From assembly GCA_965285935.1 (NCBI GenBank), contig OZ260662.1, positions 49,476,001 through 49,540,000 of the forward strand: DNA of 64,000 bases, written 5' to 3'. The DNA is from Ophelia neglecta. Taxonomy: Eukaryota. Numbering within the stretch: position 1 is the stretch's first letter; every line of letters starts with the position of its first letter. The position numbers were made by a program. This document shows positions 17,201 through 20,200 of the stretch, one piece after another.

Positions 17201-20200
17201 TTACAGCCCAAGTAAGTTGGGAGAACAAGGATATTATGGACGCTAGCATTTACTTTTTTTAATTCAGTATTGCAGATTATAATGTAAAAGTTTGCGTCAT
17301 ATTCCCCGATATGTGATATTCAAGTTTGAAATGTGAGAAGAATAAAAATTCCCGAATTAACTATGCGCCAACTGCCGCAGAAACGCGCATTAAATAGTCA
17401 TAACCGGAAATCGTTTCAAATCAGTGCCATACATAACCAGAGTGTAAGGATTATAATGTTAACCAGGCGTGAAGGTGACAGGACGGATGGTATGTCTTTA
17501 TCAAATGTCCGTAAACCATAGACCTAAAATCCCGGGATTTTAGGTCTATGCGTAAACAGTATATTTATATTGTGGTTCGCAGTTTAGTGAGCTCAAAGAG
17601 ACACCGGTATCATAAAGTATATTTTATTGTGCGAACTTGCGCTACAGTTAGGTTCATAATGTTTCAATGAATTATTCACCTTTCCACTTGTCCCTGTCAA
17701 TGATAATAATATTGTTGTTTCTCTACTATCAAATGTAAAAAGTTCAATATAGATTGATGAAAAGGAGAGTGGCTTATTGAAAAAATATGAATCAACCTAG
17801 GATGTAAGAAGAGATTAAAAGAAACACATTCCTTGTTGTAAAGACTACTCAAGATAATGAATATATATATGCCTTATGTGTTTGAATATGATATTACAGT
17901 AAATCATGTGTTTGTGGTCACCTGTTTAATAAGGTCACCTGCCCACTAAGGTCACTAAATAATACCCCGAACCCCATTAATGCCTGTGTTAACTAACCTG
18001 CTTATCAAGGTCACCCACATAACGTGGTAAGTTTTTTGCCTGTCCCTTGACTGACCAGATTAGACAAGTTCACTGTATTACCCAAGAAAGTAGAAAGACA
18101 TATAATCCTAATATGGACACTAAAAATTATACTTGAACGTTCTTGAATAATTGCTTTTTTTCCCGCCGCCACCGTCGCATCGGCTGCCGCACTTTCATTT
18201 TGCAAAAATGGTGTGTTAAGGCGTGTTAAAAAATGCCTATTTTTCCCTAGTAGTATTCAAATTATATTACCTAAACTACTTCAGTTAAAAAAAATCATAA
18301 AAGCATGCGTGCGCCCTCCAATCAAAATTATTATAGGTGCAAAGCAGATATTTGTCTGATTAAATATTTTGAGGAATGCGACAATATTCAGTTGCCATTT
18401 AGACGCTATAGCTAAACAAAAAATACCCTATTTCAAAGCCCAGTTAACTTTTTTTTGAATCGCAATATTTAGTGATGGTATAGGACATGATATATTGTGA
18501 TTTCAATGGAGTTGTCAGACTTGACCTTGGACTTTTTTCAAAGTCAAGTCACAATTTGTTTTGCCCAGATTTGGTTGGGAGTGGGAGTGTGTATATTTTA
18601 TTTCTTTTTTTCCCATGCCTTTCTGGACATTGCTAGTGCATGCATATAGTTTCAAAGAAAACATTTTTTTCCATGATTGTTTTAACTTTTATTACGACAT
18701 TGTCTGGAGTAGTCCAACAGAAATATTAGCTATTCCTTTGCAAAAGTGGGGGGCTTGTGTTTATAAACGCCTTGTTTCAGTCTGTAATCAAAATATAGTA
18801 GGAGGTCAGATTGTTTTCAAATTTGTCAAATTGGTTTCTTATGGGCCAGAAAGAAAAGGCATCATTAACTGAGAAACCCAAATAATGTGTTTACGATATT
18901 TGTATACCACCTCCCACCCAGCTCCCCTCACCCCCCAAGCATCCCTGACCTAATGCCCTTTTCCCTGGGGTTCGCTAATTATTCCTTTATCTTCGGCACA
19001 CAACATGAATACACTGCGCAAGCAAATCACGAACATTTCAATGTAATCGCCAAAAGTGATTGTCACAAATTCCACGCGCGCTGCGTAATACTGGACAGCA
19101 ATTTTTCAATGAAAGTCGCCATCGAAAATGTGTTTGTGCCGTGGGAGAGTCCGGAAATTGGTTTCGGTGTCAGCGCCGAAGTTCAAGGTCTAAATCATTG
19201 GGTTAACCAGGAAATGAAAACTTTAAAGCACGGCTACACAATAGAGGAGTAACGTTTGCGCTTAAAATGTTGGAAATATACCGTAAAGCCTGGAATTGTA
19301 CAGCCAAATGTCAAGATTATATCGTGCTAAACCCTCGTGAAATGAAAATAATCCGCGAACTCTGCGTTAACTACATGGCGCAGCCATTTTCCTTTCTCTA
19401 AAGTGATGCAGTTGATTTCCCTGAATAATAACACACGTAGGCCTATATGTGTATAGACATGGTTTGTCGTGACCCAGAATCGTGCAGAAGTTGGGCTTCG
19501 AGGTCAAGGTAAAATGTGTTAGGTAAACGTGCCAGAAACTTGGACGAAATCTGGATAATAGTGCATAGCGCATCCGCTACCCTTTAAAAGGAAATAAAAA
19601 CTTGGGTAGGAATGTTGCGGAAATTGTTCTTGATCAAGATCATTATTAAATTAATGTCAAGGTCACGATTTGTTGCTGAAATCGCACTTCAAATTATTCC
19701 CCGGTCCCTCATTATAATGGCAAAGCTGATTTCAACAAATGTTGCACAGTTGTATTGAGGAAGAGCATTGCAGTTTTCTAAGGAACTGACATCATTGTCA
19801 CACCCCAACACTGAGCACGGTAACGCCCGATACCGTACGCTTCATGGCATGCCTCAAAATATAACTAAACAGTTCCCTTGTTATTTTTCCCTTGCTATAT
19901 TAGCCATAGGCTGAAATCTTGCTCATGTAAAGCAAACTGTGACATTGCAATTGTCTCCGTTTCCCGACCGCTATAAGTGACAGGAAGATGCAATACATTG
20001 TGTCAAATTTGAACTTAGGAACGGTATGTCATCTTACCAATAACCCCACTTTCGTTTTCAGTTATATTTTCTGTTTTATACTTGAAATACAACAGAGGGT
20101 GGATTTTGTACTTCTTCAAACAATATCACGAGTTACATTCAATATGACCATCGAAAGACACGGACTCAGTAGAATAATGCTTAAATACTGCAGGTCCCAA

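What the first reader, a model, noticed from the sequence alone, without database searches (positions are those of the whole stretch)
17510..17557. Perfect 17+17-bp palindrome in a 7-bp duplication: signature of P-element-type excision
Seen: CATAGACCTAAAATCCC|GGGATTTTAGGTCTATG (17517-17550), no spacer or mismatch, flanked by identical CGTAAAC. Established: P-superfamily elements have CANRG termini and 7-8-bp TSDs, and Drosophila P transposase makes a 17-nt staggered cut that leaves about 17 nt of each TIR at the donor site. Inference: a recent germline excision scar of a P/THAP9-like transposon, implying the unusual 17-nt cleavage geometry is conserved and was recently active in this lineage. 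The scar could also extrude a cruciform 4 kb upstream of BAMBI.
Basis: partly seen in the sequence, partly recalled or inferred. Interest (0 to 1): 0.72.

Follow-up and report, generated by a model that had tools for sequence, protein, structure and literature searches.

The report
Palindromic scar of an excised transposon
A perfect 34-base palindrome between two copies of a 7-base target sequence is most likely what remains of a cut-and-paste transposon that left this site; this is an ordinary kind of genomic scar whose shape suggests, but does not prove, a P-element-like enzyme.

Summary
CGTAAAC | CATAGACCTAAAATCCC | GGGATTTTAGGTCTATG | CGTAAAC lies at 17510-17557 and is far beyond chance: the expected count is 8e-6 per window for the palindrome and 7e-10 with the 7-bp repeat, and 0 of 60 shuffles reach an arm of 17.

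The layout, with a target duplication on each side of two terminal 17-mers, matches sequenced end-joining junctions left by Drosophila P-element excision (PMC2895639). A 7-bp duplication is documented for Galileo, a P-superfamily element (PMC2775673). So a transposon donor-site scar, probably from the P superfamily, is the best reading (0.55).

The stronger claims are not supported:
- **Cut geometry.** The centre CCCGGG is itself a palindrome. Overhangs of 17, 18, 19 or 20 nt give the same product, as does microhomology joining or replication slippage between the two inverted repeats with no long stagger at all.
- **Parent element.** The window holds no other copy of the 17-mer and no transposase or THAP domain in 235 ORFs.
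- **Genome-wide test.** The source genome could not be searched.
- **BAMBI distance.** The nearest BAMBI-homologous coding sequence is 23.6 kb away, not 4 kb.

I take the window to be an invertebrate genome, not human. Interest is modest.

The parts
17510..17516 (.). Left copy of the 7-bp target-site duplication, CGTAAAC
   Evidence: It is exactly 7 bp, because the neighbouring bases of the two copies differ.
17517..17533 (+). The 17 nt retained from the left transposon end, CATAGACCTAAAATCCC
   Evidence: (I6).
17531..17536 (.). Junction hexamer CCCGGG, itself a palindrome, which makes the join point ambiguous (0, 2, 4 or 6 nt of overlap)
   Evidence: One search shows that arm 17 with spacer 0, arm 16 with spacer 2, arm 15 with spacer 4 and arm 14 with spacer 6 all describe the same 34-mer.
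17534..17550 (-). The 17 nt retained from the right transposon end, the reverse complement of the left arm
17551..17557 (.). Right copy of the 7-bp target-site duplication, CGTAAAC

Best explanation
This is a donor-site scar of a cut-and-paste DNA transposon, most likely of the P superfamily.

Step 1 (shown by the sequence): an element with termini CATAGACCTAAAATCCC...GGGATTTTAGGTCTATG once sat at a CGTAAAC target and duplicated those 7 bp.

Step 2 (inferred): its transposase cut the 3' strand at each element end and the 5' strand at least 17 nt inside each inverted repeat. Each flank therefore kept a 3' single-stranded tail made of the terminal inverted repeat.

Step 3 (inferred): host end joining united the two identical tails. 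This was either a blunt join after fill-in, if the tails were 17 nt, or pairing at CG, CCGG or CCCGGG, if they were 18-20 nt. Either way the result is a perfect 34-bp palindrome between intact target duplications.

The scar itself is probably inert: too short to be mobilised again and without a known function.
For: - **Structure and chance:** (E about 7e-10 per window).
- **Flanks:** they are direct repeats, as integration produces, and not inverted repeats as a fold-back duplication of a break would give.
- **Experimental match:** after P{wa} excision in Drosophila the flanks carry 17-nt non-complementary 3' tails. In the passages seen (PMC2895639), Table 1 lists 14 isolates of TSD-14nt-(AT)-14nt-TSD and 5 of TSD-15nt-(TA)-15nt-TSD among 68 spn-A junctions. 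These are perfect 30- and 32-bp palindromes. Table 3 lists one full 17+17 blunt join among 25 junctions.
- **Stagger:** the 17-nt stagger is stated in PMC7776569 and PMC10983969.
- **TSD length:** 7 bp for Galileo of the P superfamily (PMC2775673); 8 bp for P and for Pdre2.
- **Other long-TSD superfamilies fit worse:** hAT is predominantly 8 bp and MULE 8-10 bp, and both form hairpins on the flanking DNA, not on the element ends (PMC5499845). Dada gives 6-7 bp but lacks TIRs and sits in snRNA or tRNA genes (PMC3706591), while the window has 0 Rfam matches and 0 tRNA genes.
- **Terminus:** it begins CATA, like Pdre2 (CATACCTGTCAAC). Drosophila P begins CATG.
Against: - No parent element, MITE or second copy of the 17-mer lies in the 64 kb.
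- 0 of 235 ORFs of at least 60 aa carry a transposase or THAP domain.
- The source genome could not be searched, so copy number and the parent's transposase are unknown.
- A full-length join of both tails is the rare class in Drosophila: 1 junction in the tables as shown.
- The tail has no self-complementary dinucleotide nearer its 3' end than AT at nt 13-14.
- The CCCGGG centre lets mechanisms without any long stagger give the same product.
- Beyond CAT(A) the terminus is unlike the two P termini seen. By my own comparison by eye of strings shown, 4 of 11 positions match Drosophila P and 6 of 11 match Pdre2. This fails Repbase's working rule of positions 1-11 with at most 1 mismatch (PMC4455052).
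Confidence: 0.55

Rival explanations
1. The scar is a collapsed element and says nothing about cleavage geometry. In this reading a TIR transposon (P or other) whose inverted repeats both contain CCCGGG at nt 15-20 lost everything between the two hexamers. One route is abortive gap repair after excision followed by microhomology-mediated joining of the nascent strands. The other is transposase-independent replication slippage across the hairpin formed by the inverted repeats. Both leave one CCCGGG and the 14 outer nt of each end.
For: - The junction is a 6-bp palindrome. It would therefore be present in both TIRs and would serve both as a direct repeat and as a self-complementary microhomology.
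- Internal deletions between 6-8-bp microhomologies after excision created three MITE families from one Tc1/mariner element (PMC3814204).
- In the P{wa} assay most wild-type products come from incomplete synthesis followed by end joining (PMC2895639).
- The strand folds into a 15-bp-stem hairpin of -13.4 kcal/mol, and 0 of 200 shuffles fold as well.
- Transposase-independent 'nearly precise excision' of Tn10, which leaves a short palindromic remnant, is an analogue recalled from memory and not checked.
Against: - It requires that nt 18-20 of the parent TIR are GGG, which is unknown.
- Abortive-repair products are usually tens to hundreds of bp and asymmetric (213-549 bp in PMC3814204). A remnant falling exactly in the 30-34-bp class predicted by a 17-nt stagger would then be a coincidence.
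- The 7-bp TSD still points to a P-superfamily parent.
Confidence: 0.22
2. The 34-mer is itself a complete, mobile miniature element made only of two 17-bp inverted repeats. It inserted here as such and made the 7-bp TSD; nothing was excised from this site.
For: TIRs plus a TSD are all that the sequence shows. MITEs are internally deleted elements that keep only their ends (PMC3814204).
Against: - There is no second copy in 64 kb, although this only excludes very high copy numbers.
- Drosophila P and zebrafish Pdre2 carry internal transposase-binding sites or subterminal repeats beyond the TIRs (PMC7776569; PMC10983969), which a 34-mer lacks.
- I know of no mobile element this short (recalled, not searched).
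Confidence: 0.1
3. It is not a transposon relic at all, but a chance palindrome, an assembly or library artefact such as a palindromic linker, or contaminating vector or prokaryotic DNA.
For: Palindromic linkers exist in some library protocols (recalled). No read-level data are available to check the assembly.
Against: - The chance expectation is 7e-10 per window.
- A linker would not be flanked by a 7-bp duplication of continuous genomic sequence.
- The 48-mer has no match in 72,556 plasmid records.
- In prokaryotic genomes the 17-mer gave 18 isolated hits against about 69 expected by chance, and 0 of 18 have an inverted mate within 2 kb.
Confidence: 0.03

Closest known systems
End-joining junctions at Drosophila melanogaster P-element donor sites (P{wa} assay, PMC2895639)
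   Same: The layout is TSD, then the terminal 14-17 nt of each inverted repeat, then TSD. The products are often perfect palindromes of 30 or 32 bp, and once 34 bp. They arise from 17-nt non-complementary 3' tails.
   Different: Here the TSD is 7 bp, not 8. The sequence is unrelated beyond CAT. This is a natural, inherited scar in a non-insect invertebrate. Both tails are kept in full, which is the rare class in flies. The parent element and enzyme are unknown.
Galileo (P superfamily, Drosophila; PMC2775673)
   Same: A cut-and-paste element that generates 7-bp TSDs.
   Different: The Galileo TSD consensus GTAGTAC differs from CGTAAAC. Galileo has very long TIRs. I made no sequence comparison of termini, and the passages I read describe no excision scars.
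Zebrafish Pdre2 / THAP9 (PMC10983969)
   Same: A P-like element outside insects with short TIRs that begin CATA and with a TSD.
   Different: The TIR is 13 bp and the TSD 8 bp. Only 6 of the first 11 terminal positions match. The paper reports larger flanking deletions after zfTHAP9 excision and, in the sections I read, gives no cleavage stagger for that enzyme.
MITE birth by abortive gap repair plus microhomology-mediated end joining (Ozma to Gnome, Elf and Goblin; PMC3814204)
   Same: Internal sequence is lost between short microhomologies, leaving the TIRs and the TSD.
   Different: Those products are 213-549 bp, belong to Tc1/mariner, and are multicopy. Here only 34 bp remain and the microhomology would be a palindrome shared by the two TIRs.
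hAT, MULE and Transib excision footprints (PMC5499845)
   Same: They are donor-site scars left by end joining after excision of long-TSD elements.
   Different: Those enzymes form hairpins on the flanking DNA, so their scars derive from flank or TSD nucleotides and not from 17 nt of each element end. Their TSDs are 8 bp (hAT) or 8-10 bp (MULE).

Membership tests
P superfamily transposon (remnant) | Target-site duplication of 7-8 bp | tested here: met
   An exact 7-bp direct repeat, CGTAAAC. The TSD is 8 bp for P and Pdre2 and 7 bp for Galileo.
P superfamily transposon (remnant) | Terminal inverted repeats abutting the TSD | tested here: met
   17/17 complementary arms directly next to the TSD copies.
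P superfamily transposon (remnant) | Terminal sequence alignable to a known member (Repbase working rule: positions 1-11 with at most 1 mismatch and the same TSD length; PMC4455052) | tested here: not met
   Compared by eye with the only two P termini that papers gave me: Drosophila P matches at 4 of 11 positions (string) and Pdre2 at 6 of 11 (string). Only CAT(A) is shared. The rule is sufficient and not necessary, and Repbase itself could not be searched.
P superfamily transposon (remnant) | Autonomous copies encode a THAP-domain, RNase-H-like, GTP-dependent P transposase | not testable with these tools
   There is no parent copy in the window. 0 of 235 ORFs of at least 60 aa hit a transposase or THAP Pfam family. 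The source genome is not available.
P superfamily transposon (remnant) | Donor cleavage with a 17-nt 3' stagger inside the TIR | tested here: inconclusive
   17 nt of each end are retained, which fits. The CCCGGG centre makes staggers of 17-20 nt, or none at all, give the same product.
Dada superfamily | 6-7-bp TSD, no TIRs, insertion inside snRNA or tRNA genes (PMC3706591) | tested here: not met
   The TSD length fits, but this element has perfect TIRs. The window has 0 Rfam matches and 0 tRNA genes.
hAT superfamily | Predominantly 8-bp TSD, with flank hairpins during excision so that footprints derive from the flanks (PMC5499845) | tested here: not met
   The TSD is exactly 7 bp and the scar is made of element ends.
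MULE / Mutator superfamily | 8-10-bp TSD, typically long TIRs, flank hairpins (PMC5499845) | tested here: not met
   The TSD is 7 bp. The length of the parent TIR is unknown.

The most novel reading that the evidence does not exclude
The scar is a natural record that a P-superfamily transposase in a non-insect invertebrate cuts at least 17 nt inside its inverted repeats. The lineage is probably lophotrochozoan: the best named BAMBI relative is an annelid. The unusually long stagger of the Drosophila enzyme would then be an old property of the superfamily. Such palindromic scars could be mined from genomes to read cleavage geometry without biochemistry. Among the listed results (20 of 332), only two THAP9 papers also mention the 17-nt stagger; the passages of both that I read attribute it to the Drosophila enzyme.
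Probability: 0.38. Interest if true: 0.5.

Novelty: new member of a known kind. Interest (0 to 1): 0.33.

Why it matters
If the P-type reading holds, this single locus shows that a P-like family with 7-bp TSDs was mobile in this lineage within roughly the last 6% of neutral divergence.

It would also give sequence-level evidence that long-stagger donor cleavage exists outside Drosophila. The zebrafish and human THAP9 papers I read (PMC10983969 sections; PMC8230255 passages) do not report a stagger for those enzymes.

In practice it suggests a cheap genome-mining test. Collect all TSD-bounded TIR-TIR palindromes of a family, and the longest length retained gives the stagger.

If instead the CCCGGG-mediated collapse is right, this is simply one more degraded transposon remnant.

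Either way nothing suggests a function at this locus. The link to BAMBI regulation or to cruciform formation has no support.

Tried and rejected
- **Other copies or a parent in the window.** The 17-mer with up to 3 mismatches occurs only at the two arms. A TIR (at least 9) plus TSD (at least 5) scan gave 6 candidates against 1-8 in 20 shuffles, and only this one exceeded 9/5. The flanks 16.5-18.6 kb are unique in the window.
- **Transposase search.** The Pfam scan of all 235 stop-to-stop ORFs of at least 60 aa found only kinase, SAM and activin-receptor domains, plus one weak RNase_Y_N hit below its cut-off.
- **Prokaryotic genomes.** This was the only open DNA collection. It gave 18 isolated chance hits and 0 of 18 had an inverted mate. 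This says nothing about the source genome.
- **Plasmid collection.** No match.
- **Naming the species.**
  - The BAMBI last-exon ORF gave 24 hits. Only one carries an organism name, the annelid Paralvinella palmiformis at 36% identity.
  - The 482-aa ORF at 7875-9320 found nothing among longer proteins.
- **Literature.**
  - The 17-mer appears in no paper.
  - 'P superfamily' with excision, footprint and TIR returned 0 papers.
  - Not held, so cited only through others: Beall & Rio 1997, Min et al. 2004, Majumdar & Rio 2015, Bao et al. 2009 and Yuan & Wessler 2011.
- **Rejected models.**
  - A fold-back or hairpin duplication of a broken end, because the flanks are direct repeats and not inverted.
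  - Dada, hAT and MULE (see the membership rows).
  - An 8-bp TSD, because the neighbouring bases differ.

Full report
**Observation.**
One search shows, on the + strand, CGTAAAC (17510-17516), CATAGACCTAAAATCCC (17517-17533), GGGATTTTAGGTCTATG (17534-17550) and CGTAAAC (17551-17557). The arms are 17/17 complementary with no spacer (pair I6).

The direct repeat is exactly 7 bp, because the bases on either side of the two copies differ. The palindrome stops at the repeat.

From the window's base composition, 8e-6 palindromes of this arm length are expected per 64 kb, and 7e-10 once the flanking repeat is included. Even a 1-Gb genome would hold 0.13 and 1e-5. In 60 Markov shuffles the longest arm was 8-13. 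The next best palindrome in the real window has an arm of 10.

**What the window is.**
- There are no N.
- CpG observed/expected is 0.22-0.25 over 1-12 kb and 0.68-0.83 elsewhere. This mosaic is typical of invertebrate gene-body methylation, a point from general knowledge.
- Pfam hits among 235 ORFs are a kinase C-lobe (2332-2580), SAM domains (3548-3766) and an activin-receptor ectodomain (41177-41500).
- The last BAMBI exon ORF (41810-42361) finds 24 relatives. Only one carries an organism name, an annelid at 36% identity.
- I therefore take the window for an invertebrate, probably lophotrochozoan, and not human.
- The BAMBI exons were handled one at a time.
- tblastn of the 24 relatives places BAMBI-like coding sequence only at 41201-41482 (3 of 24) and 42029-42376 (24 of 24). 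The palindrome is therefore 23.6 kb upstream of the first verifiable coding exon.

**What the structure is.**
Inverted terminal sequences directly bounded by a short direct repeat are the signature of a transposase-mediated insertion. Here nothing lies between the two ends. Because the flanks are direct repeats, a fold-back duplication of a broken end is excluded.

The closest experimental match is the set of donor-site junctions sequenced after P{wa} excision in Drosophila (PMC2895639, passages and Tables 1 and 3 as shown):
- The flanks keep 17-nt non-complementary 3' tails.
- Among 68 junctions from spn-A flies, 14 were TSD-CATGATGAAATAAC(AT)GTTATTTCATCATG-TSD and 5 were the 15+(TA)+15 form. 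These are perfect 30- and 32-bp palindromes between intact 8-bp TSDs.
- Among 25 junctions from a Pol-theta-deficient background, one was the full 17+17 blunt join.

The 17-nt stagger of the Drosophila enzyme is stated in PMC7776569 and PMC10983969.

**Which superfamily.**
- A 7-bp TSD is documented for Galileo of the P superfamily (PMC2775673). P and zebrafish Pdre2 make 8 bp.
- hAT is predominantly 8 bp and MULE 8-10 bp. Both make hairpins on the flanking DNA, so their scars are flank-derived (PMC5499845).
- Dada makes 6-7 bp but has no TIRs and sits inside snRNA or tRNA genes (PMC3706591). The window has no Rfam match and no tRNA.

So P is the best-fitting superfamily. That rests on the TSD length and the shape of the scar, not on sequence. 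The terminus shares only CAT(A) with Drosophila P (4 of 11 positions) and Pdre2 (6 of 11), which I compared by eye with the strings.

Neither of those two termini obeys it at position 5.

**Why the '17-nt geometry' does not follow.**
The junction CCC|GGG is a palindromic hexamer (one search lists the same 34-mer as arm 17 with spacer 0 through arm 14 with spacer 6). If the parent TIR continues G, GG or GGG after nt 17, tails of 18, 19 or 20 nt would pair at CG, CCGG or CCCGGG. That is the common microhomology class in flies, and it gives the identical product.

If CCCGGG lies in both TIRs, two routes need no long stagger at all:
- abortive gap repair followed by microhomology joining, the route that made three MITE families from one mariner-like element (PMC3814204);
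- replication slippage across the hairpin. The single strand folds at -13.4 kcal/mol, z = -5.1.

With exactly 17-nt tails the join must be blunt, which is the rare class in flies. However, this tail has no self-complementary dinucleotide nearer its end than nt 13-14, so the fly frequencies may not transfer. The scar therefore sets a lower bound of 17 nt under the stagger model and nothing under the collapse model.

**What could not be tested.**
It is not on hand.
- The window holds no second copy, no other TIR/TSD structure above chance and no transposase.
- The only open DNA collection holds prokaryotes. Its 18 isolated hits (about 69 expected by chance; 0 of 18 with an inverted mate) are uninformative except against contamination. 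The same goes for the plasmid search.
- The 17-mer is in no searchable paper.
- Supplementary figures S5-S7 of PMC10983969 hold repair junctions after zebrafish THAP9 excision. I did not see them, and they bear on whether the stagger is conserved.

**Age.**
All 48 paired sites are unchanged. This has at least a 5% chance only if neutral divergence since the events is below about 0.06 per site, and a 50% chance at 0.014. The event is fairly young, but this is not evidence of present activity.

**Verdict.**
This is a real and tidy transposon scar.
- P-type excision followed by end joining is the best single explanation (0.55).
- A CCCGGG-mediated collapse of a TIR element comes next (0.22).
- An intact mini-element is possible (0.10).
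- An artefact or chance is unlikely (0.03).

It is a new example of a known kind of feature, and interest is modest. Its value lies in a testable idea: such palindromic scars can report transposase cleavage geometry across the P superfamily.

Noticed in passing
window 1-12000: CpG observed/expected is 0.22-0.25 here against 0.68-0.83 in the rest of the window. The block coincides with a + strand gene with kinase (2332-2580) and SAM (3548-3766) exons. It looks like a methylated gene body next to unmethylated intergenic DNA.
   Followed up: partly
window 7875-9320 (+): A 482-aa open frame that is rich in S, Q, G, H and N. It has no Pfam family and no relative among longer proteins. It is probably the low-complexity C-terminal exon of the kinase/SAM gene.
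   Followed up: partly
window 41177-41500 and 41810-42361 (+): Two BAMBI-like coding exons: the activin-receptor ectodomain, and the transmembrane plus cytoplasmic part ending in a stop. The exon with the start codon was not found.
   Followed up: partly
window 19812-20233: A 422-bp segment bounded by 34-nt inverted repeats that are 82% complementary (TGAGCACGGTAACG...). No clear target duplication is visible by eye. It may be an old MITE unrelated to the palindrome.
   Followed up: no
window 13584-13806: Two adjacent copies of a 94-nt stretch, 129 nt apart start to start and 74% identical. This is a short local tandem duplication (family D1).
   Followed up: no
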